From contig CAWEQU010000008.1 of the NCBI GenBank assembly GCA_963811305.1, positions 324,539 through 388,538 on the forward strand: DNA of 64,000 nt, written 5' to 3'. A program made the position numbers and the translations under genes. This stretch comes from an uncultured Chloroflexia bacterium (GTDB lineage: Bacteria > Chloroflexota > Chloroflexia > QHBQ01 > JADMIH01). The first letter of the stretch is position 1; each line of letters begins with the position of its first letter. Positions 2-54,712 of this stretch are shown one piece after another. Under the pieces are notes generated by a model. The model was not told where the DNA came from. It saw nothing but the letters and a program-made list of their open reading frames with translations, and did no database searches.

Positions 2-466
2 GGCTTCAATCCAATGCCATTCCCCTCGCTGCCAGGTGGCGGCGGTGGGCCAGGTCCTATTCCCTTCCCAACATTCCCCAGCCTGCCGGGACCGGGTGGG
101 GGGTTCAATCCAATGCCATTCCCAAGTCTGCCGGGTGGGGCGTACAATCCATTGTCCCCTTCAGCACCAGGTGGCGGTGGGGGGTCGGGAGGAATCTTCG
201 GCGGCCTGGGAGGTATGCTCGGCGGAAGTGACATGATGGGTGGTATGCTCGGCGGCCTGGGTGGTATCCTTGGCGGAGGCGGGATGTTGGGTGGCCTGGG
301 AGGTATGCTCGGCGGAAGTGGCATGATGGGTGGTATGCTCGGTGGCCTCGGCGGTACGCTCGGTGGTGGAGGCGGAGGTGGCGGCGGTATGCTCGGCGGG
401 CTTGCCGGGATGCCTGATCCAGTAGGTATAATGGGCGGCATTGACTGTGAGGGCTACGCGTATTGA
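2..466 (+). CDS. glycine-rich low-complexity repeat protein (5' end outside window)
   Basis: Frame is open from nt 2. The unit GFNPMPFPSLPGG occurs 3x, followed by GGMLGGLGG-type units; TGA at 464-466. Call rests on composition only; no family recognised. Confidence 0.45.
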   Translation, partial: GFNPMPFPSLPGGGGGPGPIPFPTFPSLPGPGGGFNPMPFPSLPGGAYNPLSPSAPGGGGGSGGIFGGLGGMLGGSDMMGGMLGGLGGILGGGGMLGGLGGMLGGSGMMGGMLGGLGGTLGGGGGGGGGMLGGLAGMPDPVGIMGGIDCEGYAY

Positions 467-651: not shown

Positions 652-705
652 TTACCCCGCCACCACCCTTATCTCCTCCTCGGTCAATCCGTACAGCGCA
701 TCATA
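652..705 (-). pseudogene. relic of an RM/methyltransferase gene 3' end (YDALYGLTEEEIRVVAG*)
   Basis: 18 codons including TAA lie directly downstream of hicA. The 27-nt core CCACCACCCTTATCTCCTCCTCGGTCA (660-686) is identical to 2259-2285 at the end of the type IIG gene. Confidence 0.6.
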
Positions 706-707
706 GC

Positions 708-949
708 TTACGTCTGCTCGTATGCGGTCAGGAAGTCCGCCCGCGATATTCCTGATTGAGCGCAGATGGTCCTCAGCGTCGAGCCTTTGATGCGAGGATG
801 GTCGGCATAGTCAGTGGGGTACGCGTGCCGTCACTATTCTCACGTACCATAGCGATATATTCCCGCTCACGCACAACCCGGAAGCCAAGCGTCTCAAACG
901 CTTTGACTACCTTTGCTTTCGGGGCATCAACGGGAAACTTCGGCGGCAC
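708..949 (-). pseudogene. hicA: HicA-family mRNA interferase toxin, 1-nt frame disruption
   Basis: GTG at 949-947 overlaps the hicB stop (TAGTG). It reads VPPKFPVDAPKAKVVKAFETLGFRVVREREYIAMVRENSDGTRTPLTMP. A 1-nt shift near 800-805 is then needed to continue as DHPRIKGSTLRTICAQSGISRADFLTAYEQT* (TAA 708-710). The span is 242 nt, one short of a multiple of 3. Confidence 0.7.
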
Positions 950-1173
950 TAGACAGCTACGCGGGCTTGTGTCACAAACGCTTCCATCACAGGAGATTCC
1001 TCATCGAACGCTTCCGCCCCGAATGTCTCGATATGGAAGCTGATAGCTGAGGTCACGTCTGCGAGCGCCTTTTCATAAGTGTCGCCCTGCCCTACAACCA
1101 CACCCTTCAAGCCGAGTGGGTACGCTACGAAGCCGTCTGTATGCTTCTCAACTATGATCTTGAACTCTCTCAT
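949..1173 (-). CDS. hicB: HicB-family antitoxin (UPF0150 fold, no DNA-binding extension)
   Basis: 74-aa ORF MREFKIIVEKHTDGFVAYPLGLKGVVVGQGDTYEKALADV..., a typical HicB N-domain pattern. It is translationally coupled to the hicA remnant. Confidence 0.75.
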   Translation of the reverse strand: MREFKIIVEKHTDGFVAYPLGLKGVVVGQGDTYEKALADVTSAISFHIETFGAEAFDEESPVMEAFVTQARVAV

Positions 1174-1210
1174 CTGATCGCCTCCGCTTTTATTATACCC
1201 CCAGCGTGCC

Positions 1211-1249
1211 CTAAGTCCCCTCCACGACCCTTATCTCCTCCTTGATCGC
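1211..1249 (-). pseudogene. second, more diverged relic of an RM gene 3' end (AIKEEIRVVEGT*)
   Basis: The coding-strand sequence AGGAGGAGATAAGGGTCGTGGAGGG matches the RM gene tail (2253-2277) apart from one substitution. It lies between the PD-(D/E)xK gene stop and the hicB start. Confidence 0.5.
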
Positions 1250-1321
1250 CTATCCCTCCAGTATCTGGTAGATCGGGTTGCCCTACTTTAACGGATAATC
1301 TACGAGGTCATCTACAGAGGT

Positions 1322-2236
1322 CTATTCTACTTCAATATACTTAGACCAGTTTAGAAAATCTTCTATTCCTGTGGCGCTTACGATAGCGATTGTCCGTACA
1401 TATTCTCTTTCTATGATGTTGCTCATGGCATTGTACCAGCTATCTTTTCCAGCAGTCGGCAGTGTATGCTTTAGCCCTGGGGAGAGATTATATTGGTATA
1501 ACAACCACGGCTCCTGCCTCAGAGGTAACTGGCTAATATCAATGTTACCGGAATAAAGGTCACCAGCACCAAGATCTACATCCGAAGCCCATAGCTGTGC
1601 TGTCGTGAATATGACAGGAACGAGAGTAATAGATTGACCACTGGTTCCGAACAAACTAGGATACAGAGCAAGGAATTCAAGCATCCCGTTAAGACCACGC
1701 ATGACTTGGGTTACAGCCTCTTCAATGCCTTTGCCTTTAGGCGATCCGTGTCGATCTCCCTCTGTGGTTCCCTTTACCTCGATAGCTATGTGATAGGCAG
1801 CGTACTTCTCGCCCCCCATGTAGTGCTCAACAGGTTCCACGAGGATGTTCTTATTGTCTACCAGTCTGGCTCTATCTAGAACAACATGTCCATGCTTCTC
1901 GGCAAAAAAGGTATAGGGGGCACGAACGAAACACCAATCTGAGTAAGCAGGATTGGCTCGTTTACATTCGGCTAACATGTAATAAGCGGAAACTCCAGCC
2001 CCTCCTTTATTCCTTTGGCGTTGAAGAACGAAGTCAATACGCGTTCCAGAGCCACGAACCTCCACTGGAAACTCGGTCGATTTAAAAGCCCAGGTTGGTG
2101 TAAAGTCTCCCAGTGGTTTTTTCTGGTTCGCAAGTTGGTGCAATCGTCTCAACACCGCGTACTGGAACGTATACCCATGCGTGTTAAGGCTCTTCCTGCA
2201 ATCCTCGAGAGACCTCTTTCTCACGTGCTTCATCAC
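1322..2236 (-). CDS. hypothetical protein with PD-(D/E)xK nuclease-like motif
   Basis: Intact 304-aa ORF, visibly AT-richer than its neighbours, starting 11 nt after the RM gene stop. It contains ..GTRIDFVLQ..(22 aa)..YMLAECKRA.., which fits a D...E-x-K nuclease core. I recognise no named family. Confidence 0.5.
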   Translation of the reverse strand: MMKHVRKRSLEDCRKSLNTHGYTFQYAVLRRLHQLANQKKPLGDFTPTWAFKSTEFPVEVRGSGTRIDFVLQRQRNKGGAGVSAYYMLAECKRANPAYSDWCFVRAPYTFFAEKHGHVVLDRARLVDNKNILVEPVEHYMGGEKYAAYHIAIEVKGTTEGDRHGSPKGKGIEEAVTQVMRGLNGMLEFLALYPSLFGTSGQSITLVPVIFTTAQLWASDVDLGAGDLYSGNIDISQLPLRQEPWLLYQYNLSPGLKHTLPTAGKDSWYNAMSNIIEREYVRTIAIVSATGIEDFLNWSKYIEVE

Positions 2237-2247
2237 TGGCCGCCATA

Positions 2248-5200
2248 TTACTGTCCCTCCACCACCCTTATCTCCTCCTCGGTCAGCCCGTACAGCTCGT
2301 ACACCAGCCTGTCTATCGCCTCGTCCGTTACCTTGATCTGCCTTTCGAGCATCACCTTGTCATTGGGGCTTTTCGCGTTGGCCAAGTCCTTGTGCAGCTT
2401 CAACATACGCTCCACCAGGCTCACCATCTGGTCGTGGCGGGCTTTGTCGGCGGGGTCGGAGAAGTTGATGGTGCGGATGGGGCAGTTGTTCTATGTATTG
2501 TCTATTTAGAGCTATATAGCCCCCACGAAATGGGGTGCTTATGGAGCGAAGATAAGTACTCAATAAGCCCGAATTGAGCACACCCAACAGGTACAGATAT
2601 GTAAGGTCCTTGCGATCTGCGAGAGTAATTGCATAACCTCCTCCACCCCCTCCACCACTGCCTACGAAGTAATACATACCTTCCAAGTCAGGGGCAAATG
2701 CGCTGCCAGTGGCAATAGAGGGCACTAATAACTTCTGTAGACCGAACCGAGTGTGATTCTTCTTATACACATATCCATACCAATCTTCTCCAAGTCGCCC
2801 TTTATTCCTTGACCTTAATCTCTCTCTATTCTCTTCCAAATATGCCCATGTCAAGGGATAGTGCTCTCTATAATCCTCTTGACTTATAAGCACGGACTTT
2901 CCATCCTTCATAGCATATGGAAAGATTAAGCGTTTCGTTACCCTATCCAGATAGTAGCGACGTATATTGAGTGAACCCTTTAGGAAAGGCTTGAGATGTT
3001 GGTATTCAAACCAATGTTCCTTGCCTGTAGCTTTTGACATACAGAGAATCCGATCACCCTCCTGGCGCACCGACTCCAAAATAAACACATCATCAGCATC
3101 GGTCTGTAGACCCACAAAAAGATGCGCGACGTCTCCCAGCTTCACAGGCATAGCGTTCAGCCGACCAAACAAGCTGACGTTCTGGCCCATACCAAAGTTC
3201 CATTCCTGCGCGCCTACATTCTCAGCAGGCACAACACTTTTTTCTGCATGACCAGTTAGACGCCAATCATTAAGATTACGTACCATCAGAATGTGGCATG
3301 CATCGTTAGCTCTTCTGGTGAGAAACAATAGGCACGTATAAGTCGTGGCTTCAGTGAACACCTGCTGATCTGTAAAATGCACAATGTCCGATAAGTGCTG
3401 CCCTTGCGATATCAACCCGCGCAAGGGTTCTCCATATTGTGCGTTGAAGAACTTATGCGGCAAGATAAATCCTAACCGTCCTCGATTGTTCAGCAGTTCC
3501 AGTCCCTTCTCGACAAACACAACGTAAATATCATAGTTCCCCTTGCTTGCCGAAACGTATCGCCTTTTATAGTGCTCGACCTCTAAGGGTGCCCACTCCT
3601 TCATGGTTTGGATGCGGATATAAGGCGGATTACCAATCACCGCATCGAATCCACCTGCCTTCATAATCTCCTTGAACTCACTCTGCCAGTCGAAGGCGTT
3701 GATACGGTACTGCTCCTCGCTATCCAGGAAGCTCGACTGCCCGCTCGTGTAGAAGTCCGGCCCTATCAGCGAGTTGCCCGACTTGATATTCTCTCCCAGG
3801 TCGGGCAGCACGCGGTCTGCCGTCGCTACCCCCGCCAGGCCAAGCTGCACCCCAAGCGTCTCCCGCGTCTCCCCTTCCAGCACCTTCAGCAGCAGCGACA
3901 GCTTCGTCACCTCCACCGCCTGCGTGTCAATATCCACCCCGTAGATATTGTTGCGCAGTATCTTCTTCCGCTCCCCGATGCTCAGCCTCCACCCAGGCGC
4001 TCCATCCCCCACATTAGCCACCCGCACCAGCGCAGGGGCGTCCGCCTTCTTCCCCCTCCCGCCAGCCTTCTTCGCATGGCTCTCCGGGTCGTTCGCCGTG
4101 TACCAGCGCAGGTGCCAGTCGAGCAGATAGCTATACGCCCCAATCAGGAACGACCCTGAGCCGCACGCCGGGTCCAATATCCGCAGGCCCGCAGCCTCCT
4201 TCGGCGTCTTCCCCTCAAGCAGCTTCCCAACCGTCTGCTCCACGATGTAATCTACGATGTAGGTAGGCGTATAATAGACCCCGCCCGCCTTACGCACCTC
4301 TGGTTTGTCTTCAATAACTACCTGCCGGATTGCGAATTGCGGATTGTGGATTGTGGATTTTGAGCTACTGCCTTCTGCATTCTGCCTACTGCCTTCTTTG
4401 GAGTCGTCCGTAATCCTGATCACTTTCCCCAGGAACTGCTCGTACACCTGCCCCAGTATCTCGATAGGTATCACGTCGAACTTGTAGGGGCTTGGGTAAT
4501 AAAGGTGTTCGACTATCCTGGCGATCGGCTCGTCCCCAATCTGAAGGTTCAGGGTGAACTCGTCCGGCTGCTCGGCTATCCCCTTCTCAGGCTTGAAATG
4601 GAAGAGGCCGGAGTTGTACCGCTCGTGCGCCCGCGTAAAGAGGTCCACCAGCCGCCTGTACATCCCGCCGCCATACTTCAGCGTCAGCTTAAGCTGGTCT
4701 TCCGGCTCGATTCCCCGGTCCTCGGCGATGCGCAGGAAGATAATGCGGTTGATAGTCATCTGCACCGCGTAATTCAGGTCGCGCTGGGAGAGGTCGGGAT
4801 TGCGCGTGGCAATTTCCCGCGCCAGCACCTCCCGCCACTCCGAGAATCTCCTTCAGAAAGGCCGCGTCAACGGTCTGCGCGCCCGACAGCTTCTTCTCCA
4901 TCAGCTTATCGAGCGAACCCCCGGCGACAGCATCATGGTGGAGCAGCTCCGCGATGTCGTCCCAGCGCTCCACGTACTGCTCGTAAGTGAGATAGAAGCC
5001 TGGGAGGACTGCCACCTTAGCGAGGTCGTTGCGGTCCGGCTTGATGCGGCAGTCGTAGACGGAGAATTGCTGGAAGTCGGTCAGGATGCTGATGGGGAGG
5101 CGTGCGCTCCACCCGTAGGCGCGCACCTGGAAAGCGTGGGCGCGGTTCGTCTCAAGCTCCTCGTAAGGCTTCTTCGCCTCCACGTAGAACTTGCGCTTGC

Positions 5201-5486
5201 CATCGATGCGGAAGGAGTAGTCGGGGACCTTCCCCTTTATCTTCTCTATAGCATCCCCACCCACATCCTCGGCCCTAATGGTATCCTCGAAAACGACGTC
5301 GCGCGCTTCCGGCGCGACACCCTGCGTCGCCGTCACGGGCCACCCCAGCGCCTCGAAAAGCGGGTTGATAAACTCGCTCCGTACGCTATATTCCTTGTAC
5401 GAAGGTTGAGTATATTCCGCCTCGTTAGCGCGAAACTGCTCGACAAGCCTGGCAATAGCATCGGGTGCGGCCATAACACGCTCCAT
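2248..5486 (-). pseudogene. type IIG restriction enzyme / N6-adenine DNA methyltransferase (Eco57I-like fusion), at least 2 frame disruptions
   Basis: N-terminal nuclease motif PDYSF..FYVEAKKP (ORF 4689-5486). Methyltransferase motifs DPACGSGSFL and GNPPYIR (ORF 2360-4828). The frame changes near 4841-4851 (..DAAFLKEI / SEWREVLAREIATRNPD..). It changes again at the G4 run 2479-2482, after which the canonical tail IRTINFSDPADKARHDQMVSLVERML..YELYGLTEEEIRVVEGQ* reads to TAA 2248-2250. Confidence 0.8.
4326..4397 (-). repeat. heptamer tandem arrays (GGCAGAA-like + ATCCACA-like) translated inside the RM gene
   Basis: The coding strand reads GAAGGCAGTAGGCAGAATGCAGAAGGCAGTAGC..AAATCCACAATCCACAATCCGCAATTCGCAATCCG = EGSRQNAEGSS..KSTIHNPQFAIRQ. 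The same two array types occur in the same order at 61844-61915 in mnmG. Confidence 0.8.
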
Positions 5487-5641: not shown

Positions 5642-5812
5642 TTCTGAGAATGTCCAAAAAGCATGAGGCAATGTGTAAAGCCATGAATGTCATTCTGAGC
5701 GAAGCGAAGAATCTACGATTTTTACCACAGCACACGCTCAGAGATTTCTACATTCTTCGCTTCGCTCAGAATGACAGGCTAATTGGTGCTGCTCTTTTTG
5801 AACACCCTCTGA
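5642..5812. mobile_element. MITE-like nested palindrome, long form (copy 1)
   Basis: Inner arms are GTCATTCTGAGCGAAGCGAAGAAT (5688-) and ATTCTTCGCTTCGCTCAGAATGAC (-5776). Outer arms are TGTCCAAAAAG and CTTTTTGAACACCCTCTGAG. Confidence 0.7.
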
Positions 5813-6130: not shown

Positions 6131-6300
6131 CATTCGAACAAGGGGCACAGCGCAGGTCAATCCACACCTGGTAGGAGCGCCATGCCCATAGCTCACCCCT
6201 GGGGTGTACTTCGTATACCAAGTACACCCCAGGCACAGAGGGAAATCACCAGGAACCAGTTGCGGCACAGGGGCACCCGACCCTACAACCCAACGCGCCC

Positions 6301-6329
6301 GTAGGGGCATGGCGTCGCCATGCCCCTAC
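6301..6329. repeat. REP-like hairpin GTAGGGGCATGGCG-T-CGCCATGCCCCTAC
   Basis: Perfect 14-nt inverted repeat. It shares the GTAGGGGC core with hairpins at 52936-53028 and with the RAYT flanks. Confidence 0.7.
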
Positions 6330-6390
6330 CACCCCTACCTCCACACCCACCACACCCACCACCTTACCATCAAAACACATCCCATAATAC

Positions 6391-6513
6391 CTCTACGTCT
6401 CTACGTCTCTACGTCTCTACGTCTCTACGCCTAATACCCATAAATAATCTTGGCGTTCTCCGTAATCTTGGCGTCTTGGCGTTTAATCCGTCTTTCGTCT
6501 TTCGTCTTTCGTC
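6391..6513. repeat. serial tandem arrays (CTCTACGT x4-5, CTTGGCGT-like x3, CGTCTTT x3)
   Basis: Read directly from lines 6361-6520. There is no spacer structure. Confidence 0.85.
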
Positions 6514-6615
6514 CAAAATGGTTCACCCCTAATGGGACATTAGGGCTATTCCCACTGGCTACTACCTCCTCCTATAATCTATCCAGGACCAGTACGCACT
6601 TGGGAGAAACACGCC

Positions 6616-8750
6616 ATGCTCATCAAACGCCTGGCCGGGGCGCAGCAAGCCTCGGCTACCGACAGCCCAGCAGATAACCTCGCACAGCCGGCTCAATATC
6701 CACTCCCTTCCGGCAAGGGACCCATGCCCACCGAGATCATGCCCGGCACAGGCACAGCGCCCCTGCCTCGCAACACGGTCCTCCAGGGACGCTACGACGT
6801 CGAGCAGGTGCTGGGCGTGGGCGGCATGAGCACCGTCTACAAGGCCCGCGACCTGCGCTTCACCGCGGTTGCCCGCTACTGCGCCATCAAAGAGATGCTC
6901 GACACCGCGCCCGGACCCGCGCACCGGCCAGCTTCGCCTCGCCAACTTCGAGCGCGAGGCCTCCCTGCTCGCCACCCTCTCTCACCCCGGCATACCCAAG
7001 ATTTACGACTTCTTCTCCGCGCAGGGCCGCGTCTACCTGGTGCTGGAGTTTATCGATGGGCAAGACCTGGAAACGCAACTTGCAGGCCAGGGGCGTCCCC
7101 ATGATGGAAGATGAGGTAGTCGAGTACGGCGGTGCAAATCTGCGACGTGCTGGAGTACCTGCACGGCCACCAGCCTCAGCCCATCGTCTTCCGCGACCTC
7201 AAGCCCTCGAACATCATCGTCACGGCGGAAGGTAAGCTCACTCTGATCGACTTCGGTATCGCCAAGGTCTTCCAGTCGGACAAGCGCGGCACCATGATCG
7301 GCACCGAGGGGTACGCCCCGCCCGAGCAGTATCGCGGCCTGGCCGAGCCGCGCGGCGACATCTACGCCCTCGGCGCGACCATGCACCACCTGCTCACCAA
7401 CTCCGACCCGCGCTCCCAGACGCCCGTTCACCTTCCACGAGCGCCCGATACGCAAGTTCAACCCTCGCGTCTCCGAGTACATAGAGTCGGTCATCCTCGC
7501 GCTCGTAGAGTACGACATAGAGCGCCGCTGGCCCACCGCCCCGGCTCTGCGTCAGGCGCTCATGCAGAGCAGCATATTCGACTCCAAGCTAAAGCGCCGC
7601 CAGTCGGACCCCCTCGATGAATTGCCCTCGTTGCTAGATGGCGCTACGGTCCCCAGGATGTCCTCGTCGCACGCTTGAGGAGATTCGGCACCTGTCGACT
7701 TCACAGGATATGCCGCGGCTGCCGAGCGGCCGTCGCCGACCATCCCGGCTCCATTCAGCGTCCTGCGCCGCAGGCGGCGAGGATGGCGCGCAGGTGCTCT
7801 GGACCTTCGCCGCCGACGACGAGATTCGCTCCTCCCCCCTGTGCAACCGTGGGGTGGTCTTCTTCGGCTCGTACGACACCAACTTCTACGCGCTCAACGC
7901 CAAGAGCGGCGATTTCCTGTGGAAAGCTCCCACCAAGGCGGGTATATGCTCCTCCCCCGCTGTAATGCCGGCGACATGGTCGTGGTCGGCTCGGAGGACA
8001 ACTACGTCTACGCGCTTGACGCTCGGCGAGGCACCCAGGAGTGGAGCTTACCGCACCGGCGCGGCCGTCCGCTCGTCCCCTAAGCAGTACAAAGACATGG
8101 TGTTCGTAGGCTCGGACGACCAGAATATCTACGCGCTCCACGCCGATACGGGGCAGATGCTATGGAAGTATCGCACCTGGAACTTCGTGCGCTCCTCCGC
8201 GGCCTTCGCCAAGGGCCTTGTATTCATTGGCTCCAGCGACGGCAACCTGTACGCGCTCGACACGCTGAGTGGCACCCTCAAGTGGAAGCTGCATACCCTG
8301 GGCGCGATCGTCAGCACCCCGGTGGTGGTGGGCAATATCGTCATCGTAGGCTCGATGGACAACTACGTGTATGCCGCGGAATCGAGACCGGCTTCACGTC
8401 CTGGCGCTTCGAGTGCCAGCACTCCGTCTCCTCGTCGCCCGCCGTGCCGGGGGGCGCGTGATGATCGGCTCGGCCGACGGCCACCTGTATGCCCTTGACG
8501 CGCCCACGGGCCGCCATATCTGGAGCTTCGACACCGGCAGCCAGATGACCTCGTCGCCCCGCGTGTCGCTCATCAGCGACGCGTCTATTTCGGCGCGACC
8601 AACAACTACGTCTATTGCCTGGACGCCAGCACGGGCGAGCTGAAGTGGAGGTACAAGACGCGCGGCCCCGTGGTCTCGTCCCCCGCTATAGAAGACGGGA
8701 TAGTGTACGTCGGCTCGCTGGACCGCAAGCTATACGCGTTAGCAATGTAA
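6616..8750 (+). pseudogene. Ser/Thr protein kinase followed by PQQ-like beta-propeller repeats, multiply frame-disrupted
   Basis: Kinase motifs are split over ORFs 6616-7104, 6869-7114 and 7132-7620 (GVGGMSTVYKA, AIKEM, IVFRDLKPSNI, DFGIAK, GTEGYAPPE). Propeller blades alternate between all three frames up to TAA 8748-8750; examples are VFFGSYDTNFYALNAKSGDFLWK, VVGSEDNYVYALDARRGTQEW, IGSADGHLYALDAPTGRHIW and YVGSLDRKLYALAM*. I count at least 8 frame changes. An SD-like GGGAG lies 10 nt before ATG 6616. Treating kinase and propeller as one gene is an inference. Confidence 0.7.
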
Positions 8751-8848
8751 GGAAAAAGGATAAAGGATAAAGGATAAGAATATCCATCGTCACGAAGCAT
8801 AATCCCATACCCAGCATCCTTTATCCTTTTTCCTTTATCCTTTTTCCC
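8751..8848. terminator. long hairpin whose arms are (GGATAAA)n / (TTTATCC)n arrays
   Basis: Left arm is ggaaaaaggataaaggataaaggataag and right arm is atcctttatcctttttcctttatcctttttcc. It starts immediately after the propeller stop and precedes the SD of the 8860 gene. Terminator function is inferred from position only. Confidence 0.4.
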
Positions 8849-8859: not shown

Positions 8860-9111
8860 ATGGCGAAGGTAGTAATCATACACGTCGTGGGGGAAGAGCC
8901 GATTTACGCTGAGGTCGAGGACCTGCCCAAGCCCACTGACCAGTTCCTCGAATTCACTAACCCTCGCAAGCGCGACGGCAAGCCCCTCGCGTACATGACC
9001 ACGGGGGCCAAGTCCTTCATCTTCCCCTGGCACCGGCTGTCGTTCGTCGAGGTAATGACCACCGAGACCGAGCGCGAGGACGTGATAGAGTTCTTCCGGG
9101 AAGATAGATAG
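8860..9111 (+). CDS. small conserved hypothetical protein (83 aa)
   Basis: An SD-like GGAGAAG precedes the ATG. The ORF is intact. A decayed paralogue at 11180-11418 shares LP.P.D....P....GKP......F.FP...EVM.TE....IEFFREDR*. Confidence 0.6.
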   Translation: MAKVVIIHVVGEEPIYAEVEDLPKPTDQFLEFTNPRKRDGKPLAYMTTGAKSFIFPWHRLSFVEVMTTETEREDVIEFFREDR

Positions 9112-9335: not shown

Positions 9336-11173
9336 TTAATCTGTAGGTTCGAGGTTCAAGTCCCTTGTATGTGGCCCAAAGCCTGACGTTAGAGATTTCG
9401 TGGTAGCCAATTGCCGGCGCTCGCGCCTCCGGCGGGCGATGCTGATTGTGGACGAAATCAGCAGGTAGAGGAGGGGTGGCCCGTCTATTATCAAGCCGGA
9501 CCATGCCCACCACCACCCGAACAAGTTGGAAGTGGCGGGGTTGAGGCCATGCACGGCCAGGGAGGTAACACACATAATCTGCCCGGCGGTATACAGGCGT
9601 CCCGGCCCGAGCAGAGCCATAGGCACAATGAGCCAGGAAGTGTACCAGGGCCAGAACCAGATCGAGCCGATAGCAAGGTAAGCAAAAACAGTCCACCAGA
9701 GCGCGACCAGCATAGCGCGGAAGGTGCGGGCGCGCCACAGGTACAATAAGGCTAGCAAGGCTGCGATAGCTTGCAGGCCGTAGCGGGTGGGCTTGTCGAG
9801 GCTATCTCCAATAGCCTGACCATTCCACGACGTGCCGATATCCCAGTGCTGGTCATCTGCCATTCGATCTACGGCAGAGGGCACAGTGTAGCGAATTAGC
9901 GTGCCTAGAGAATGTATGTAATAGAGCGAGTCGGGTTCTCGGTATAGATCTTTAAAGTACCAGGCCCGCGCCAGAAAGGGAGCCACACCAATACCCAGGT
10001 CGCCGCTACGATCCCTAACGCCTGCCCTAACCGGGATAGCATGCGCATCAGGAGCTGCATGGTGCCATTACTGCTGGTCTTGCGGGTCTCCCAAAATAAG
10101 AAGGCGAGGTAGGGTCCGATAAAGGTCAAACCTTCCGTCAGCTTAGCCAGGCTTCCAAGCGCCAATACCATCACCGCCCACCGCCACCTGCCTGCCAGGT
10201 GCAGCCAGATAGCGGCCAATAGAGTCTCAGGCATGGCAAGCCCATCGTTGTGCCCGCTCACCCCGAACTCCACCAACAGCAGGGGGTTCCATGCGTAGGT
10301 GAGCGTGATACCAACCTGCGCGCCACGCCGCCAGCTACTTCGCACCCGCAATGCGGGTAGCTGCGTCCCACCCTCAGTATGCACGCGCTCTCGCGCCCTA
10401 CCCTTTGCGGGCCAATAGCGAGAGATAACCTCCCGCGCTACGTGCCACAGTAACCATATATTCACAAGGTGTAGGACGCTTGCCAGCAGCTTATGGCTCA
10501 GCAGGTGGGTGACGATATGGTCGTCTATCATCCGGCTGAACATGTACAGGTTACCCGCGATAATAGTCCAGACCGGCCCGTAGGCAGAAGGCAAATCGGG
10601 CCAATCTAGATAACGGAGCCAGCCTGCGGCATCCTGGGCGGCATAGGCTGAAGGCACATCTATAAAGGGATTGCCACCGTGCAGCGCGAAGACACGTCCA
10701 TACCATATATAGCTGAAGAGATCGCCTGTGAAAGCCCCAGGCGCGAATAAGAGCACCACCAGTATAGCGGCAGTGATAACGAGGATGATCCTGAGAGGAG
10801 CTTTGCCGCTCTTACCGGAAAAAACATCGGAGCGGAAGGCGCGGAAGACCACAAAAAGGTAGACGGCGAATAGCAAGATTAGCAGAAGGTGGTAGAACCT
10901 GGAGTTTAGCAAGCCGAAATCGCCGCTGCCGTTCATTCGCCCCAGCAGCGTCATAACGAAGGTGTTGAGGGGGTTGTAGAAACCGGGCCAGCGGTCGGCA
11001 ACGAGGTTGGACTTCACCCACAGGGAGGGTGATTGCAGCAGCAAGAATAAAGCAACGTACCCAATGAGGAGAAGGAATTCTCCCACAATAAGCAAGCGAA
11101 GCCCTGAGTTGTTGCGCGGGCTATCAACTTCGTGGGGGATAGAAGAATTGATGCGACGTGGGAATAGCTGCAT
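9336..11173 (-). CDS. GT-C fold integral-membrane glycosyltransferase (DUF2029/GT87-like), one frame break
   Basis: Polytopic membrane protein with a first-loop motif FTGDLFSYIWYGRVFALHGGNPF and SAYGPVW. ORFs 9905-11173 and 9336-9986 overlap and join at ..WLPFWRGPGTLK / FKDLYREPDSLYYIH... A paralogue lies at 51198-52830. Confidence 0.6.
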
Positions 11174-11179: not shown

Positions 11180-11418
11180 ATGTCATTGGGAATCACTCTG
11201 GCAGGGCTGATATTAAGACTTCGTTTTCGTGCCCGAAAATTGCCTTACCAACCTGTAGATACGATAGTGGTTTCACCGACTGTCAAGCCCAACGGAAAGC
11301 CTATCGAGAACATGATCATGTGGGACAAGCCCTATATCTTTCCCTTTCCATTATTGAGGTGATGGCTACCGAGAGCAAGTGCTAGGATATGATAGAGTTC
11401 TTCAGGGAGGACAGATAA
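11180..11418 (+). pseudogene. decayed paralogue of the 8860-9111 small protein
   Basis: ..LPYQPVDTIVVSPTVKPNGKPIENMIMWDKPYIFPFP is followed by a frame change, then IIEVMATESKC, an in-frame TAG, then DMIEFFREDR* (TAA 11416-11418). Compare ..EVMTTETEREDVIEFFREDR* in the intact copy. Confidence 0.6.
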
Positions 11419-11600
11419 GGCAAGGTTAGGCATCAGACATAAGTGTTTGGTAGCTAACGTATCTTAGCCTGCCGCCGAAGCTCACAACCTTACAGATCGG
11501 ATAAGATTACTCGCTCACGACAGAGCGATGCGCATGAACTCTTTAACAGCCTTCCTAACGAGGTTCGTCGCTGTCTCTTCAGGCTCATCATAGTAAGATG

Positions 11601-28710: not shown

Positions 28711-29469
28711 ATGGACACGAGTATCTCGCAATCGGATTGGCGCAAAGTGATAGCCGAAATCGTCGGCACCTTTTTCTTCTTCTTTATCGGTATCGGAGGG
28801 GCAATCATAGCCGGGGGGACCGGGGGGGCTGGTGGGGTCCTCTATGTAGCCCTGGCGCATGGCATCGCCCTCGCCCTCGCCATCTCAGCCCTGGGGCACG
28901 TATCGGGCGGCCACTTCAACCCCGCCGTCACGATATCTATGCTGGTGACGCGCAGGATCAGCCCTATGCTGGCAATCCTCTATATCATAGGGCAGATCGT
29001 GGGTGGAGTGCTGGCTTGCCTGGCGCTTATCTCAATCTTCCCCAGCGAGGCATGGCAGGCGGTGAATTTGGGCACGCCGAGCGTCGTAACGGGCGTGAAT
29101 ATGGCGCAGGCCATTCTCCTTGAAGCGATACTCACCTTCTTCCTGGTGGTGGCCGTATTCGGCACTGCCGTTGATACACGCGGCAAGGGGATCGCGGGCT
29201 TCGGCATCGGCCTTACGGTCTTCGCGGACATCCTGGTGGGCGGACCCATCAGTGGCGGGGTGATGAACCCTGCGCGCGCCATCACCCCCGCGATTGTTTC
29301 CGGCAACTGGAACGGCGACCAGATAATCTACTGGGTTGGGCCGATAATCGGCGGCATCATAGCGGGATTGCTGTATACCGCCCTCTTCCTCCGCAAAGAG
29401 GACCTGCCATCCGCCGCCGGACAGGAGCCTCCGACGAGTGAGCCTGGGTTGCTGAATGACGGACGATAG
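28711..29469 (+). CDS. aqpZ: MIP-family aquaporin
   Basis: Two NPA boxes (HFNPAVT, MNPARA) and six hydrophobic segments. The stop TAG is supplied by the first GACGATAG unit of the downstream array. Confidence 0.85.
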   Translation: MDTSISQSDWRKVIAEIVGTFFFFFIGIGGAIIAGGTGGAGGVLYVALAHGIALALAISALGHVSGGHFNPAVTISMLVTRRISPMLAILYIIGQIVGGVLACLALISIFPSEAWQAVNLGTPSVVTGVNMAQAILLEAILTFFLVVAVFGTAVDTRGKGIAGFGIGLTVFADILVGGPISGGVMNPARAITPAIVSGNWNGDQIIYWVGPIIGGIIAGLLYTALFLRKEDLPSAAGQEPPTSEPGLLNDGR

Positions 29470-29590
29470 ACGATAGACGATAGACGATAGACGATAGAGT
29501 ATTACTTCCATAAAATAATCTCTGCGCCCTCTGCGCCTCTGCGGTGAACTTATTTTCTATCGTCCGTCGTCTGTCGTTCGTCGTCTATAG
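29458..29590. repeat. palindromic array element (GACGATA)5 .. (CTCTGCG)3 .. (TATCGTC-like)n
   Basis: Read directly. It overlaps the aquaporin stop codon. Confidence 0.85.
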
Positions 29591-35248: not shown

Positions 35249-35325
35249 CTTGCCTTAGCTGAATTGGTTCCGTGGTCAATCTCTCGCTGAAGACGTTCAA
35301 TGCGCTCTTCCAATTGATATTCTCC

Positions 35326-35537
35326 TCAGAGGGTGCCTAAAAAGTGTAAAGCACGACGTAAAGCCGTGAATGTCATTCTGAACGAAGTGAAGGATCTACG
35401 ATTATTACGACAGTACACGCTCATAGATTTCTAGATTCTTCGCTTCGCTCAGAATGACAGGCTAATAAGTACAGTTCTTGGACACTTTCTCAGAATGACA
35501 GGGTAGTTTGTGCTTCTCTTTTTGGACACCCTCTCAG
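35326..35537. mobile_element. MITE-like nested palindrome, long form (copy 5)
   Basis: Outer arms are TCAGAGGGTGCCTAAAAAG and CTTTTTGGACACCCTCTCAGA. Inner arms are GTCATTCTGAACGAAGTGAAGGAT and ATTCTTCGCTTCGCTCAGAATGAC, plus an extra CAGAATGACAGGG fragment. It overlaps the stop of the 35534 gene. Confidence 0.7.
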
Positions 35538-36637
35538 ACCCCCATCTTCTGCAATTCTGACACGACCCTATCGAGAAAATCGTCCGCGTTACGCACGATG
35601 CCGAAAACTTGATGAGTGCCGCGGTCCATCAGCTTGTGGATGACGTTCTCCTGCTGGTCTATCGCTATCGTGTAAACAGGCTCCAGGGTGCCGTTGCGCT
35701 CTACGAAGGTGGGGAGCATGTTGCCGGTGGCGATGGAGTGCAGCATGGTCGCAAGCATTACTACAAGCGTCGCGCCCTGGGTGAAGAAGCGCATTTTATC
35801 TTGAGCTTCCAGCGCGTCGGTGATGACGCCTGGGAGAGGGCCGTCGTCTCGAATAGAACCCGCGAGGAGGAAGGGGATACCATAGTTGACGCAGGCGTGC
35901 ATGATGCCATCGGGCACGACACCGCTCTGCACAGCAGCGGCTATGCTCCCGGCGCGCCTCACCGTGTTTATTGCATCCATGTGGTGGCGATGCCCACCCA
36001 AGACGGTATGCCCCTCCACGTCCATGCCGAGGGCCGTGCCATACAGGGCCTGCTCAAGGTCGTGGACTGCTACGGCATTGCCGCCGAAGACCGCACCCAC
36101 GTAGCCATTTGCGATGAGCCACGCCATGCTGTCTCGCGCGCCCGCATGTACGACTGCGGGGCCTAGCACCCAGATGCTGCGCCCGTTACGTCGCTTGTCC
36201 CACTCCAGCAATTCGGCCATGCGGCGGTAGTTCAGGGGGCGCTCCCGCGATGCGCCGCCAGACATGAAGCGAAACGCCTCTTCCTGGCCTGCACCCTCCG
36301 CCTGGAAGCCGGTAGAGTGGACGAAGAGGCCGTAGCTGCCATCCTCTGCCGTGCCTGTTACAACCTGTTGCCCCGCCCGGATTCTACGTAGCTCGGTGCA
36401 GACATACTCTTTCTCTTTCTCGTCCCATACGATCACGCCGTCCATACGCTGCCGCTTCACCAGTCGCCACTCGCCATCGTGCTTGATGTAGGTGGGGAAG
36501 TTGGTCGAGGAGTAGAAGGTCTGCGGGGCCAGACCATCGGCGGGCGCGGGCTCCATAGCCCTATCGGGCGACTGCATGAACATTGGGCGGGTGAAGTCGG
36601 GCGGGGTGTATTTCAGGTCGAAGTCGTAAGTAGCCAA
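35534..36637 (-). CDS. LOR/SDH-like, TIGR00300-type protein (tentative)
   Basis: ..WVLGPAVVHAGARDSMAWLIANGYVGAVFGGNAVAVHDLEQALYGTALGMD.. matches my recollection of that family. The ORF is intact. Confidence 0.4.
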   Translation of the reverse strand: MATYDFDLKYTPPDFTRPMFMQSPDRAMEPAPADGLAPQTFYSSTNFPTYIKHDGEWRLVKRQRMDGVIVWDEKEKEYVCTELRRIRAGQQVVTGTAEDGSYGLFVHSTGFQAEGAGQEEAFRFMSGGASRERPLNYRRMAELLEWDKRRNGRSIWVLGPAVVHAGARDSMAWLIANGYVGAVFGGNAVAVHDLEQALYGTALGMDVEGHTVLGGHRHHMDAINTVRRAGSIAAAVQSGVVPDGIMHACVNYGIPFLLAGSIRDDGPLPGVITDALEAQDKMRFFTQGATLVVMLATMLHSIATGNMLPTFVERNGTLEPVYTIAIDQQENVIHKLMDRGTHQVFGIVRNADDFLDRVVSELQKMGV

Positions 36638-36933: not shown

Positions 36934-37015
36934 AATGCTTACATGTTACCACAGATATAAGAGGTAAGGTGGGGTGGTTCTACGTCACTAAGCGTAGCCC
37001 GCTCTTGTGAATAGC

Positions 37016-37178
37016 TCAGAGGGTGTCCAAAAAGTGTAAGGCAAAGTGTAAAGCAATGAGTGTCATTCTGAACGAAGTGAAGAATTTACGATTTACAGTA
37101 TACCCTTAGAGATTTCTAGATTCTTCGCTTCGCTCAGAATGACAGGTGGAGAGTTACACTTCTTGGACACCCTCGCAG
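37016..37178. mobile_element. MITE-like nested palindrome, long form (copy 6)
   Basis: CAGAGGGTGTCCAAAAAGTGTAA .. GTCATTCTGAACGAAGTGAAGAAT .. ATTCTTCGCTTCGCTCAGAATGAC .. TTACACTTCTTGGACACCCTCGCAG. Confidence 0.75.
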
Positions 37179-37185
37179 ACGCAAG

Positions 37186-40209: not shown

Positions 40210-40227
40210 GTGAGGCTCCTTGAGAAG

Positions 40228-40343
40228 GGACGATAGACGATGGACGATAGACGATAGACGATAGACGATAGACGATGGACGATGGACGAAAAAACGTGAT
40301 GCGTGATGCGTGACGTTGAACTTTGAACTTTGAACTTTGAACT
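40228..40343. repeat. serial arrays (GACGATA/GACGATG x10, GTGATGC x2-3, TTGAACT x4) in the hutU 5' region
   Basis: Read directly. It begins 19 nt upstream of the hutU ATG. Confidence 0.85.
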
Positions 40344-53044: not shown

Positions 53045-54601
53045 CTATCGTCTGTTGACCCGGTGTATACGCACGTCATACCCGCCGACACTCACCGTCT
53101 TGACGTTCTCGAAGGCGTTGAAGAGCGCATCGTATTGGGCGATCATGTCGGCGTAGCGTTCAGGCTCTGCATAGAAGCGGCCATACTCCCCCTGGCTGAA
53201 TACCAGGTAGTCAACTCCGTTGGTGGCGTACCACTCCGGCGTATGCAGCGCCATTATCGTGTAGTCTTGCACATGATAACGCTTCGGGTCCACATAGGGT
53301 GCGTAAGGCTCTATGGCAACGGTGCTGCCTTCAGGTACGTTCTCCTCGATCCACACCCTGGCAATCTCACGGCTCTCTACGCGCTCCAGAAACGAATTGG
53401 TAGTTTCCACCATCGCCACGACAGGGAAAGCGATAGATAGAGCGGCCAGCGCAGCCACTCCGAACGCGATAGCTACCCGTGCCCTCTGTGGATACGTATG
53501 GCGTACCATCCTCCGAGCAAGCGTCACCAGCAAAGAGGAGGCCAGTAGATACATGAAGGGGGTCAGAGGCAGGGCGGTACGGTCGTTGCGCACCGCGAAG
53601 CTGTTGATAAAGACGAAATAGACCAGCGGAAAAATGGAGAGGAGGATGACAGGCTTGAGGCGAAGGTATATCCCCCGCCCCGCCTCCGCGAGCGCGAGCA
53701 ACCCTATTGGCCCGCCCGTAATCCATAGATAGTCGAGATACCACTTGAGCGTGTCCCCGTCCATGCCGATATGCCCGGTCGAGTAGTGCTCCGCCTCGGA
53801 GCGCAACCCGGTGATGAAAGCTTCCATGTCAAAGAGGGCGTATGGTGTGGTCAGGAAGAACGCTACGGGAGCTAACGCGAGAGCAAGATAGAATCGCTGC
53901 TCCCGCACCCCGCGCCAACCATGTCGCAAGAAGTGAGCGCCCACGAGGGCGAGGCCGATCAGCACGCCGTTATACTTGCCGGAAGCCGCGAGTCCCACCG
54001 ATAATCCCGCCACTATATAGTCCCACAACTCTCCCCGTTGGAAGACAAGCACCGCCCCCCAGAAGGCGAGCAGGATGAAGAAGACCTGGATGACATCGGG
54101 CGTGATATAGCGGCTGTGTTGCACGTTCCCAGGCGATATCGCCATCAGCAGCGCCGCCAACAGCCCTACCATCGTGCTGCCAGTTAGCCGCTTGCCTATC
54201 ACATAGACCAGCGCTACCGCGCCCACGCCGAACAGGAGAGAGACGCTTCGCCCAAGCAGAAAGGTGGAGGGCATGGGGGATATGCCCACGCCCGTCGTGA
54301 GCATCATGGGGGCTGCTATGTCGTCGGGACTGTGGAAGGCCCCCGTTATGCTGCCCAGCAGATAGAAAGGGAGATAGGCCAGCGCGTTGATGTCGAAGAA
54401 GAGAGATGGGAAGACGAATGAGTGGGGGTTCCAATCGCCTCTCTTGAACATATCCTGGGCGATTGGAACGTAAAGCGGCTCATCGGGGTGGTAAATATAC
54501 GGCAGTCCAAAAGCAAGACTCCAGACCCGTACCGCCAACGCCAGGAATAGTATCCCGGCGACAAGCCATTTTATATGACGGTCAAGGCTGTTAGAGAGCA
54601 T
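53045..54601 (-). CDS. GT39/ArnT-like (PMT_2) membrane glycosyltransferase
   Basis: Start is taken at MLSNSLDRHIKWLVAG (ATG 54601). ..GLPYIYHPDEPLYVPIAQDMFKRGDWNPHSFVFPSL.. is typical. The listed 67-codon N-terminal extension is read-through of the (GTCCATC)n array. Confidence 0.75.
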   Translation of the reverse strand: MLSNSLDRHIKWLVAGILFLALAVRVWSLAFGLPYIYHPDEPLYVPIAQDMFKRGDWNPHSFVFPSLFFDINALAYLPFYLLGSITGAFHSPDDIAAPMMLTTGVGISPMPSTFLLGRSVSLLFGVGAVALVYVIGKRLTGSTMVGLLAALLMAISPGNVQHSRYITPDVIQVFFILLAFWGAVLVFQRGELWDYIVAGLSVGLAASGKYNGVLIGLALVGAHFLRHGWRGVREQRFYLALALAPVAFFLTTPYALFDMEAFITGLRSEAEHYSTGHIGMDGDTLKWYLDYLWITGGPIGLLALAEAGRGIYLRLKPVILLSIFPLVYFVFINSFAVRNDRTALPLTPFMYLLASSLLVTLARRMVRHTYPQRARVAIAFGVAALAALSIAFPVVAMVETTNSFLERVESREIARVWIEENVPEGSTVAIEPYAPYVDPKRYHVQDYTIMALHTPEWYATNGVDYLVFSQGEYGRFYAEPERYADMIAQYDALFNAFENVKTVSVGGYDVRIHRVNRR

Positions 54602-54609
54602 TTCATTGG

Positions 54610-54712
54610 CGATGGACGATGGACGATGGACGATGGACGATGGACGATGGACGATGGACGATGGACGATGAAACGTGATGCGTGATGGTGAACAATGGAC
54701 GATGGACAGATG
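54610..54712. repeat. (GATGGAC)9 + GTGATGC x2 + GATGGAC-like array abutting the GT39 start
   Basis: Read directly. Confidence 0.9.

What the first reader, a model, noticed from the sequence alone, without database searches (positions are those of the whole stretch)
652..2300. Three copies of an RM-gene 3' end delimit two inserted cassettes downstream of the type IIG gene
On the minus strand the order is as follows. First, the RM gene tail ..YELYGLTEEEIRVVEGQ* (stop 2248). Second, the PD-(D/E)xK gene (2236-1322). Third, a relic ..IYQILEG*AIKEEIRVVEGT* (1290-1211). Fourth, hicB-hicA (1173-708). Fifth, a relic YDALYGLTEEEIRVVAG* (705-652). Relic C shares a 27/27-nt core with the live tail, and relic B shares about 24/25 nt. 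Each cassette therefore looks as if it entered at, or recombined through, the conserved last roughly 50 nt of an RM or methyltransferase gene and left a copy behind. This resembles cassette accretion at a defence hotspot, but I see no integrase or attC-like site.
Basis: seen in the sequence. Interest (0 to 1): 0.65.

Follow-up and report, generated by a model that had tools for sequence, protein, structure and literature searches.

The report
Gene cassettes stacked behind a restriction gene
Two small gene units, a 304-residue unknown protein and a hicBA toxin-antitoxin pair, were added one after the other just behind a restriction-modification gene, each leaving a short copy of that gene's last codons, and the same footprint recurs behind related genes in other bacteria.

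Summary
Three same-strand copies of the type IIG RM gene's 3' end lie at 2255-2296 (live), 1218-1243 (26 nt) and 656-697 (42 nt, 39/42). None is expected by chance in 64 kb.

The copies bracket a 304-aa gene of unknown function and a hicBA module. No homology to the RM gene extends upstream of either relic, and the tails do not fold like attC.

- A syntenic locus from a related genome (L063) shows this is a variable defence hotspot between a kinase-PQQ gene and a Gly-rich gene.
- A contig (L062) holds tail-hicBA-relic without the 304-aa gene, so hicBA entered first.
- A tail model found similar arrays in 6-7 other independent loci. Their cargo includes Abi, TA pairs, membrane proteins and an oxidoreductase. 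Relics there carry private variants of the resident tail.

Best reading: stepwise insertion just after ...VVEG with duplication of the last 26-54 nt. This is a variant of Kobayashi's "insertion with long target duplication". I infer that host short-homology recombination does it, not a dedicated recombinase.

The main rival is remnants of replaced RM genes. That demonstrably happens: in L063 a Shedu gene replaced the RM body.

This is a new variant of a known kind, of moderate interest.

The parts
2248..5486 (-). Type IIG restriction-modification gene: N-terminal nuclease, Eco57I/N6 methylase domain and TaqI_C-like specificity domain. It is read in three frames because of two single-base homopolymer indels, near 4825 and near 2480.
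   Evidence: PADLOC REase_MTase_IIG PDLC03604 (E 5e-181 and 3e-54). Pfam Eco57I, N6_Mtase, MmeI_Mtase, TaqI_C, HSDR_N. Frameshift sites read. GC 0.45-0.6 against 0.62-0.67 in the flanks.
2252..2318 (-). Tail A, the live 3' end of the RM gene (...IDRLVYELYGLTEEEIRVVEGQ*). The repeated core is 2255-2296. Its GGAGGG lies 8 nt before the ATG of the next gene.
   Evidence: nhmmer tail model positions 2-68, E 3e-16. Repeat family D1.
1322..2246 (-). Cassette 1, a 304-aa protein of unknown function. Its true start is ATG 2246-2244, one base after the RM stop, with an apparent frameshift near 2190. Invariant D67...E89-x-K91 suggests a PD-(D/E)xK nuclease.
   Evidence: 323 homologues, all unnamed. No Pfam, NCBIfam or PADLOC hit. 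Start inferred from homologues L006 and L007. Invariant residues. AF2 pLDDT 91. No significant fold match.
1211..1243 (-). Relic B, a 26-nt tail core plus GACT and stop TAG (KEEIRVVEGT*). It is the former live end of the RM gene, displaced when cassette 1 entered.
   Evidence: Its stop and post-stop sequence (GGAGGGGACTTAGGGCACGCT) is homologous to the upstream tail of L062 (GGAGGGGCGGTAGGGCGCGCC), which directly precedes hicBA there.
708..1199 (-). Cassette 2, the hicBA module: -10 box TATAAT 1197-1192, hicB 1173-949, hicA 949-708 (one apparent 1-nt deletion).
   Evidence: HicA_toxin Pfam hit after frame correction. HicB homologues named HicB antitoxin. Module limits defined by alignment to L058, L059, L060, L061 and L062.
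652..705 (-). Relic C, a 54-nt partial tail (YDALYGLTEEEIRVVAG*) that abuts the hicA stop. The core 656-697 is 39/42 identical to tail A.
   Evidence: The same hicA-stop/relic junction is present in L061 and L062. Homology to RM C-termini reaches at most 75 nt.
6225..8326 (+). Conserved flank of the hotspot: the part of a Ser/Thr kinase plus PQQ beta-propeller gene (frameshifted in this assembly) that aligns with L063.
   Evidence: 83% nt identity over 2.1 kb with L063:1-2049. Pfam families of the L063 gene.
14..466 (+). Other conserved flank: a Gly-rich protein gene convergent with the cassette array.
   Evidence: 67-75% nt identity between window 170-321 and L063:6365-6570.

Best explanation
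**What it is.** The locus is a variable defence hotspot lying between a kinase-PQQ gene and a Gly-rich protein gene. It holds a horizontally acquired, lower-GC type IIG RM gene.

**What happened.** Two small gene units were added one after the other immediately behind that gene.
1. The hicBA module, with its own promoter, entered first.
2. The 304-aa gene entered later, between the RM end and hicBA.

Each insertion broke the RM reading frame just after ...VVEG (DNA ...GTGGAGGG). The incoming DNA supplied a new last residue or residues and a stop. A partial copy of the RM 3' end was left on the far side of the insert: 54 nt for hicBA (relic C) and 26 nt for the 304-aa gene (relic B). This is 'insertion with long, variable target duplication', here aimed at the RM gene's 3' end.

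**Mechanism (inferred, not shown).** There is no dedicated recombinase. I propose that host recombination uses the tail as a short homology or microhomology patch. This could be single-crossover integration of DNA that carries a tail-like end, or microhomology-primed template switching or end joining at the two Shine-Dalgarno-like purine runs of the tail (GAGGAGGAG and GGTGGAGGG).

Insertions at this spot survive for two reasons. They keep the RM ORF intact. They also place the newcomer's start codon 4-14 nt after the tail's GGAGG, so that it is co-transcribed and translationally coupled.
For: **Shown.**
- The three copies are real and not due to chance.
- The relics do not continue upstream into RM-like sequence.
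- hicBA is a discrete module. In tail-less contexts its homology starts at the -10 box and, where hicA is complete (L058), ends at the hicA stop. It has no flanking repeats there. The duplication is therefore a property of the RM site, not of the cargo.
- L062 has tail-hicBA-relic without the 304-aa gene. Its upstream tail's stop and post-stop sequence matches relic B, which gives the order of events.
- L061 and L062 share the exact hicA-stop/relic junction.
- L063 is syntenic (kinase 83%, RM ends 92.5%, hicB 92%) but has different content, which proves a hotspot.
- The pattern recurs. A live tail plus downstream partial copies occurs in L033/L019, L041 (4 tails), L050, L052 (same locus as L057/L048; 40-nt perfect repeat) and L055. 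L042 has three relics and no intact RM.
- In L033, L055 and L062 the relics carry private variants of the resident tail: LYELTAEEIAIV...GEKR, and ACCTCG/AGC. They are copies of the resident gene's own end.
- About 20 relics all keep the stop-side end and none exceeds about 240 nt of a roughly 3.2-kb gene.
- Copies stop being alike right after GGAGGG.
- In about one third of tails a same-strand ORF of at least 60 aa starts 4-14 nt after GGAGG.
- There is no integrase in the island, no tRNA and no attC-like fold.

**From the literature.** Insertion with long, variable target duplication and no mobility genes is documented and linked to RM loci (PMC2853133).
Against: - No empty site was found for the window's own RM gene. 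Its nearest relatives are at most 64% identical.
- L062 is only 763 nt long, so it is unknown whether its upstream tail ends a live RM gene.
- At this very locus in L063 the RM body was replaced by a Shedu gene, leaving both RM ends. In L042 a relic of at least 170 nt resembles an intact RM gene from the same sample. RM tails therefore can be leftovers of replacement.
- A-B divergence (2/26) is not smaller than A-C divergence (1/26 in the same core), which the proposed order alone would not predict. Gene conversion or sequencing error must be invoked.
- L063 has a 1-kb insert between the tail and hicB with no duplication.
- The mechanism is entirely inferred.
Confidence: 0.55

Rival explanations
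1. The relics are leftovers of successive RM gene replacements. Each time, a new RM allele plus its downstream partner gene overwrote the resident RM gene by illegitimate recombination. Only the last 26-54 nt of the old gene survived. Nothing was inserted 'at' the tail.
For: - L063: at the same locus a Shedu gene replaced the RM body, leaving a 148-nt 5' stub and a 239-nt 3' stub that includes the tail.
- L042: there is no intact RM gene, and relic 2 covers at least 55 codons and resembles the intact L040 gene from the same sample.
- RM loci are known to undergo allelic substitution (PMC2853133).
Against: - It needs three near-identical tails, so three alleles of the same gene. Homologous alleles should recombine without leaving a duplicate.
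- There is no RM 5' stub or any other RM sequence next to either cassette in the window.
- Left ends of about 20 relics cluster in the last roughly 8% of the gene instead of being spread over 3.2 kb.
- L062 shows hicBA directly behind a tail, with the relic already present.
Confidence: 0.27
2. The tail is the attachment site of a dedicated site-specific cassette-capture system, integron-like or like tandem islands at a tRNA 3' end. Its recombinase would be encoded elsewhere, or the RM enzyme itself would make the break.
For: - Cassettes are in the same orientation, each followed by a copy of the same roughly 26-nt core.
- The pattern recurs in several phyla.
- The right edge of the repeat is constant, at GGAGGG.
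- Furuta et al. speculate that RM-made double-strand breaks drive long-target-duplication insertions.
Against: - No integrase or recombinase is in or next to the array.
- The left ends of the copies vary from 26 to about 200 nt, unlike a fixed crossover core.
- The tails have no attC-like secondary structure, with z scores near 0.
- hicBA and the 304-aa gene occur elsewhere without any tail copy.
- Cargo includes a plain oxidoreductase.
- Another, non-RM gene in the window shows a similar 3'-end copy.
Confidence: 0.08
3. The copies are unrelated sequences that look alike only because the LYGLTEEEI..VEG peptide and codon bias constrain the DNA, or they are an assembly artefact.
For: - Independent orthologues share 37/42 nt with tail A.
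- The assembly carries many indel errors.
Against: - Relics B and C are not at the ends of any gene, so no peptide constraint acts on them.
- They share the ATA-AGG-GTN variant, which is absent from all 11 orthologue tails collected without reference to the DNA core.
- There are 0 chance matches in shuffles.
- The hicA/relic junction is reproduced in two independent contigs from other samples.
Confidence: 0.03

Closest known systems
Insertion with long target duplication (Nobusato et al. 2000, Gene 259:99; Furuta et al. 2010, NAR 38:2428, PMC2853133)
   Same: A short gene unit with no transposase or integrase is flanked by direct repeats of tens of bp. The repeats vary in length, and the sequence is single-copy before insertion. 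The phenomenon is tied to RM loci and its mechanism is unknown.
   Different: In the published cases the inserted unit is the RM system itself, and the target is any host sequence. Here the RM gene's own 3' end is the repeatedly used target. The inserts are TA, Abi or unknown genes, and insertions stack into arrays. One repeat (26 nt) is below their 30-bp cut-off.
Tandem accretion of integrative islands at the 3' end of a tRNA or protein gene (att repeats are partial gene ends; decayed forms without integrase)
   Same: Each element is followed by a partial copy of the target gene's 3' end. The live gene is kept intact. The newest element lies next to the gene.
   Different: No recombinase is present in any cassette. 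The repeat left ends differ from cassette to cassette. The cassettes are only 0.5-1 kb.
Integron cassette arrays
   Same: Small, same-orientation, mostly one-gene cassettes, including TA pairs, follow each other. A recurring short sequence sits at each cassette's 3' side, and expression can come from upstream.
   Different: There is no IntI gene and no attI. The repeat is a coding tail with no palindromic attC fold. hicBA has its own promoter.
Defence islands and hotspots with cassette turnover between conserved flanking genes
   Same: Conserved flanks (kinase-PQQ gene, Gly-rich gene) enclose different defence content in related genomes: RM, a 304-aa gene and hicBA in one, Shedu and others in the other.
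   Different: Described hotspots are usually delimited by core genes and mobile-element integrases. Here a sub-hotspot sits at the last codons of one defence gene and leaves a diagnostic repeat.

Membership tests
Insertion with long target duplication (criteria of Furuta et al. 2010) | The insert is flanked by direct repeats longer than 30 bp. | tested here: inconclusive
   The hicBA insert meets it: 42-54 nt, 39/42 identical. The 304-aa insert has only a 26-nt repeat with 2 mismatches, which is below their cut-off.
Insertion with long target duplication (criteria of Furuta et al. 2010) | The repeated sequence is single-copy at the empty site in a related genome. | tested here: inconclusive
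   For the 304-aa cassette, L062 shows one tail directly before hicBA, but the contig is 763 nt long and only about 90% identical. No empty site was found for hicBA. No RM relative is above 64% identity.
Insertion with long target duplication (criteria of Furuta et al. 2010) | No mobility genes in the insert, and insert shorter than 20 kb. | tested here: met
   The inserts are 1.0 and 0.5 kb. Pfam finds only HicA among the cargo genes. There is no tRNA.
Insertion with long target duplication (criteria of Furuta et al. 2010) | The inserted unit contains R and M genes (their screening criterion). | tested here: not met
   The inserts are hicBA and a 304-aa unknown gene. The RM gene is the target, not the insert.
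Integron | IntI tyrosine recombinase and attI adjacent to the array. | tested here: not met
   No recombinase domain in the ORFs of 652-5486. The neighbours are a kinase-PQQ gene and a Gly-rich gene.
Integron | Each cassette ends in an attC imperfect palindrome that folds as single-stranded DNA. | tested here: not met
   The three tails, folded on both strands, give z scores from -0.8 to +0.45 against shuffles.
Integrase-driven island accretion at a gene 3' end | A site-specific recombinase in at least one element, and a fixed crossover core. | tested here: not met
   No recombinase is present. Repeat left ends differ: tail-model position 40 for relic B, 20 for relic C, and 1-40 in other loci.
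Type IIG RM enzyme (Eco57I/MmeI-like) | A single polypeptide with an N-terminal nuclease, a gamma-class N6-adenine methylase domain and a C-terminal specificity domain. | tested here: met
   HSDR_N/MmeI_N, Eco57I, N6_Mtase, MmeI_Mtase and TaqI_C. PADLOC REase_MTase_IIG. Intactness is uncertain because of two apparent frameshifts.
HicAB type II toxin-antitoxin | A HicA toxin domain next to a HicB antitoxin. | tested here: met
   HicA_toxin PF07927, E 6.5e-8, above the cut-off, after repairing one frameshift. The 74-aa partner has thousands of homologues that sources name HicB. HicB itself has no Pfam hit.
PD-(D/E)xK nuclease (the 304-aa protein) | The D...(D/E)-x-K catalytic signature on the restriction-endonuclease-like fold. 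| tested here: inconclusive
   D67, E89 and K91 are invariant in 54 homologues. There is no Pfam, NCBIfam, PADLOC or PDB-sequence hit. The AF2 model is confident (pLDDT 91), but Foldseek gives no match at E <= 0.001. The only signal is weak viral hits named PD-(D/E)XK, the best at E 0.03.

The most novel reading that the evidence does not exclude
The conserved last roughly 26-50 nt of Eco57I/TaqI_C-type RM genes (...LYGLTEEEI.VVEG) would act as a portable, recombinase-independent landing pad. Any DNA that has once sat behind such a gene, or that ends in Shine-Dalgarno-like purine runs, could be captured there, expressed from the RM operon and passed on to other RM genes. That would be an integron-like capture platform for defence and TA genes built into the end of a defence gene, and possibly stimulated by the RM nuclease itself.
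Probability: 0.12. Interest if true: 0.85.

Novelty: new variant of a known kind. Interest (0 to 1): 0.55.

Why it matters
How small defence and toxin-antitoxin genes move without any mobility gene is an open question. So is how defence islands grow.

This locus and its look-alikes give a readable footprint of such events: partial copies of one gene's last codons. They reveal the order of events and expose a preferred breakpoint, right after ...VVEG / GGAGGG.

If the tail is a general short-homology landing site, two things follow:
- It would explain why Abi, TA and unknown genes so often sit, translationally coupled, behind type IIG and related RM genes.
- It would give a simple search key, tail-model hits that are not at ORF ends, for finding new RM-associated defence genes. 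It would also make 'long target duplication' experimentally testable.

Tried and rejected
- **Chance or codon-constrained similarity.** Rejected for the window. I did find that 37/42 identity can arise between unrelated orthologues, so identity alone is not used as evidence.
- **DNA-level selection or spread of the exact core.** It occurs in 21 metagenome contigs. Per-gene codon-usage probabilities of about 1e-5 to 7e-3 could, on my rough guess of how many such genes the collection holds, give that many matches without selection. Dropped.
- **Viral origin.** There were 0 matches of the core, or of a degenerate form of it, in viral contigs.
- **The relic travels with the cargo.** Rejected for the 304-aa family (no tails in L001-L008) and for hicBA in L058-L060. 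The unit hicBA plus relic C is, however, shared by L061 and L062.
- **Target duplication as a property of hicBA insertion.** Rejected, because there are no flanking repeats elsewhere.
- **attC-like folding.** Rejected.
- **A close relative of the RM gene to supply an empty site.** None found.
- **Function of the 304-aa protein.** The structure was predicted well but nothing matched significantly.
- **Literature.** No paper contains the motif string YGLTEEE.

Full report
**1. Observation**

- the end of a type IIG RM gene, ...LVYELYGLTEEEIRVVEGQ*, with stop at 2250-2248;
- a 304-aa ORF;
- a short tail-like relic, KEEIRVVEGT*, with stop at 1213-1211;
- hicB and hicA;
- a second relic, YDALYGLTEEEIRVVAG*, with stop at 654-652.

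The repeat finder groups 656-697, 1218-1259 and 2255-2296 into one direct-repeat family. Copy C is 39/42 identical to A. Copy B matches A over a 26-nt core with two mismatches. A search of the whole 64-kb window, allowing three mismatches, finds only these three sites, and 100 dinucleotide shuffles give none.

- Relic B is about 26 nt plus its stop, not 80 nt. Identity collapses immediately upstream of the core.
- The 304-aa gene starts at ATG 2246-2244, one base after the RM stop. Homologues begin MAT(D/N).. and the window reads MAASDEAREKEV..., then shifts frame.
- The RM gene (two sites), hicA and the 304-aa gene each contain single-base indels, at least the two RM ones in homopolymer runs. 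The neighbouring kinase-PQQ gene is broken in the same way, although its counterpart in L063 is one intact ORF. I therefore attribute these indels to assembly error (inference).
- DNA identity by itself is weak evidence. Two unrelated orthologues share 37/42 nt with tail A simply because they encode LYGLTEEEIAVVEG in GC-rich codons. What the three window copies specifically share is ATA-AGG-GTN for I-R-V. None of the 11 orthologue tails collected without reference to DNA has this.

**2. The parts**

The RM gene has the full type IIG architecture. Pfam finds HSDR_N/MmeI_N, Eco57I, N6_Mtase, MmeI_Mtase and TaqI_C, and PADLOC finds REase_MTase_IIG. Its GC content is lower than that of the flanks.

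HicA matches Pfam HicA_toxin once the frame is repaired. The 74-aa partner has thousands of homologues that sources name HicB.

The 304-aa protein belongs to a family of more than 300 unnamed proteins.
- D67, E89 and K91 are invariant across 54 members.
- The AlphaFold model is confident, with pLDDT 91.
- There is no Pfam, NCBIfam, PADLOC or PDB-sequence hit.
- Foldseek gives no match at E <= 0.001. The only signal is weak viral hits that happen to be named PD-(D/E)XK.

**3. Are the relics decayed full-length genes?**

tblastn with the last 300 residues of 18 intact RM proteins finds no homology upstream of relic B. For relic C it finds at most 75 nt, and that stretch abuts the hicA stop.

**4. 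Do the relics belong to the cargo or to the site?**

Close hicBA relatives (about 90% nt identity) sit in three unrelated contexts, L058, L059 and L060. Homology to the window starts at GGGTATAAT, the -10 box, about 12 nt after relic B's stop. Where hicA is complete (L058), homology ends exactly at the hicA stop. There are no tails and no flanking direct repeats.

Homologues of the 304-aa gene occur in eight varied contexts with no RM tail. The two closest with readable flanks share a 5' leader that the window lacks.

The cassettes are therefore separable units, and the duplication is a property of the RM site.

**5. Related loci that give the history**

Two short contigs with near-identical hicBA carry the same junction, hicA stop plus about 12 nt plus a partial tail starting at TGTACGG. 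These are L061 (HicB protein 99% identical) and L062 (95%).

L062 also begins with a full tail...LVYDLYGLTSEEISVVEGR*, followed by hicBA. This is the state tail-hicBA-relic without the 304-aa gene. The stop and post-stop bases of that upstream tail (GGAGGGGCGGTAGGGCGCGCC) are homologous to those of relic B (GGAGGGGACTTAGGGCACGCT).

Relic B is therefore the former live end of the RM gene. hicBA entered first, and the 304-aa gene entered later, 26 nt before that old stop.

L062's two tails share private variants and are 37/38 identical, but they differ at seven positions from window relic C. This points to concerted evolution or recombination between copies within a locus.

L063 comes from a related genome and is syntenic with the window:
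- the kinase-PQQ gene is 83% identical over 2.1 kb;
- the first 148 nt and the last 239 nt of the RM gene are 92.5% identical;
- the hicB start is 92% identical;
- the Gly-rich gene is also present.

In L063, however, the RM body has been replaced by a Shedu (SduA_C) gene. A different 1-kb segment lies between the tail and hicB. hicA and relic C are gone.

This proves that the site is a variable defence hotspot. It also shows that RM tails can survive as leftovers of replacement.

**6. Recurrence**

An exact scan for the 25-nt core in metagenome contigs returned 21 loci. Many matches are not ORF ends.

A 72-nt nhmmer model built from 18 live tails was then run over all fetched loci. It found arrays of a live tail plus same-strand partial copies in the following.

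| Locus | What is there |
|---|---|
| L041 | Four tails in 2.5 kb, separating an Abi_2 gene and a RhuM-like fragment |
| L042 | Three relics and no intact RM gene |
| L050 | Two tails flanking a membrane-protein gene |
| L052 (same locus as L057/L048) | A perfect 40-nt repeat flanking a 181-aa membrane ORF; the next gene overlaps the relic's stop |
| L055 | An oxidoreductase gene between two copies that both end ...GEKR |
| L033 and L019 | Cyanobacterial genomes; relics 93% and 86% identical to the resident tail, carrying its private LYELTAEEIAIV variant; L033 has an extra RelE-like TA pair plus relic |

Solitary relics precede a DUF4258/MqsA-like TA pair in L044 and a membrane gene in L037.

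Three regularities hold across about 20 relics.
- The stop-side end is always kept, and copies cease to be alike right after GGAGGG.
- Left ends vary between tail-model positions 1 and 40.
- None reaches more than about 240 nt into a roughly 3.2-kb gene.

In about a third of tails a same-strand ORF of at least 60 aa starts 4-14 nt after the tail's GGAGG. In the window the spacing is 8 nt to the 304-aa gene's ATG.

**7. Explanation**

The best-supported reading is stepwise insertion of small gene units just after ...VVEG of the RM gene, each with duplication of the last 26-54 nt. [quoted passage not shown] Those cases also lack mobility genes, and their mechanism is unknown (PMC2853133).

The following are shown: the copies, the separability of the cassettes, the hotspot, the order of events, the recurrence, and the derivation of relics from the resident tail.

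The following is inferred. Host recombination would use the tail as a short homology or microhomology patch. The tail is the most conserved DNA stretch of the family and contains two Shine-Dalgarno-like purine runs about 20 nt apart, which would fit the 26-nt repeats of relic B and L037. Insertions there would persist because the RM ORF is preserved and the newcomer is co-expressed.

The main rival, at about 0.27, is that the relics are stubs left by replacement of RM genes. This is supported by L063 and L042. It is weakened by four points:
- the clustering of left ends near the stop;
- the absence of 5' stubs;
- the intermediate state in L062;
- the need for three near-identical alleles.

A dedicated integron-like or integrase system is unlikely:
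- no recombinase is present;
- the left ends vary;
- the tails show no attC-like fold;
- a non-RM gene in the window (8860-9111) also has a decayed copy of its last roughly 165 nt 2.2 kb downstream.

**8. Novelty**

The category is known: long target duplication and defence hotspots. I could not find the following described:
- repeated use of one gene's last codons as the target;
- stacking of the inserts into arrays;
- TA, Abi and unknown cargo rather than RM genes as the inserts.

The literature check was limited: the motif string is in no paper searched, and the long-target-duplication papers describe RM genes as the inserts. I rate it a new variant of a known kind, of moderate interest.

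Noticed in passing
window 2190, 2480, 4825, ~800, and 6616-8800: Single-base indels break the RM gene (twice), the 304-aa gene's N-terminus, hicA and the kinase-PQQ gene. At least the two RM ones lie in homopolymer runs. The L063 kinase orthologue is intact, so this looks like an unpolished long-read assembly rather than pseudogenes.
   Followed up: partly
window 8950-9111 and ~11270-11420: The last roughly 165 nt of the 83-aa gene 8860-9111 recur, decayed (about 75% identical, with an internal stop), 2.2 kb downstream. The two copies bracket a reverse-strand 422-aa membrane ORF (9905-11173). This is a second 3'-end duplication in the same window.
   Followed up: partly
L063:2933-4942: In the syntenic locus of a related genome the RM gene body is replaced by a Shedu (SduA_C) gene. 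A 148-nt RM 5' stub and a 239-nt 3' stub remain. hicB is truncated and hicA is lost.
   Followed up: yes
window 708-1199; L058, L059, L060, L061, L062: The hicBA module starts at the -10 box in at least five different contexts at 90-97% nt identity. It ends exactly at the hicA stop in the four where hicA is complete. No repeats or mobility genes explain how it moves.
   Followed up: partly
L041:1-2554: Four RM tails lie within 2.5 kb. Each is embedded in 7-9-nt microsatellites (TGCACGAC, GGTATGAC, GCTCAGAG). Two of them are preceded by a hairpin (CCCGCC..GGCGGG).
   Followed up: no
L033:9895-10657, L019:12400-13196; P0356, P0308: A RAYT/IS200-like Y1 transposase ORF overlaps the RM stop (ATGA) in two cyanobacterial genomes. 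Relic b there includes 37 nt of that ORF's start, and the breakpoints coincide with HIP1-like GCGATCGC. Database RM homologues exist fused to Y1_Tnp (P0356) and to Fic (P0308).
   Followed up: partly
window 35325-35520 and 37015-37179: A pair of direct repeats totalling about 170 nt, 84-85% identical and 1.69 kb apart, flanks ORF 35534-36637. The repeats contain a CTCAGAATGACAGG motif.
   Followed up: no
window 29452-29499, 40219-40298, 54601-54707, 62391-62474 and others: Heptamer tandem repeats of the form GACGAT(G/A) recur at many sites in the window.
   Followed up: no
L006:120-173, L007:118-165: The two closest readable homologues of the 304-aa gene share a conserved leader of about 45 nt (..AGCCYTTGATGGG..) upstream of the ATG. 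It is absent in the window, where the RM tail takes its place.
   Followed up: no
window 5673-5796 vs L063:2674-2797: A 124-nt element upstream of the RM start is 93% identical to a segment in L063 but in inverted orientation. It may be a small mobile or invertible repeat at the hotspot border.
   Followed up: no
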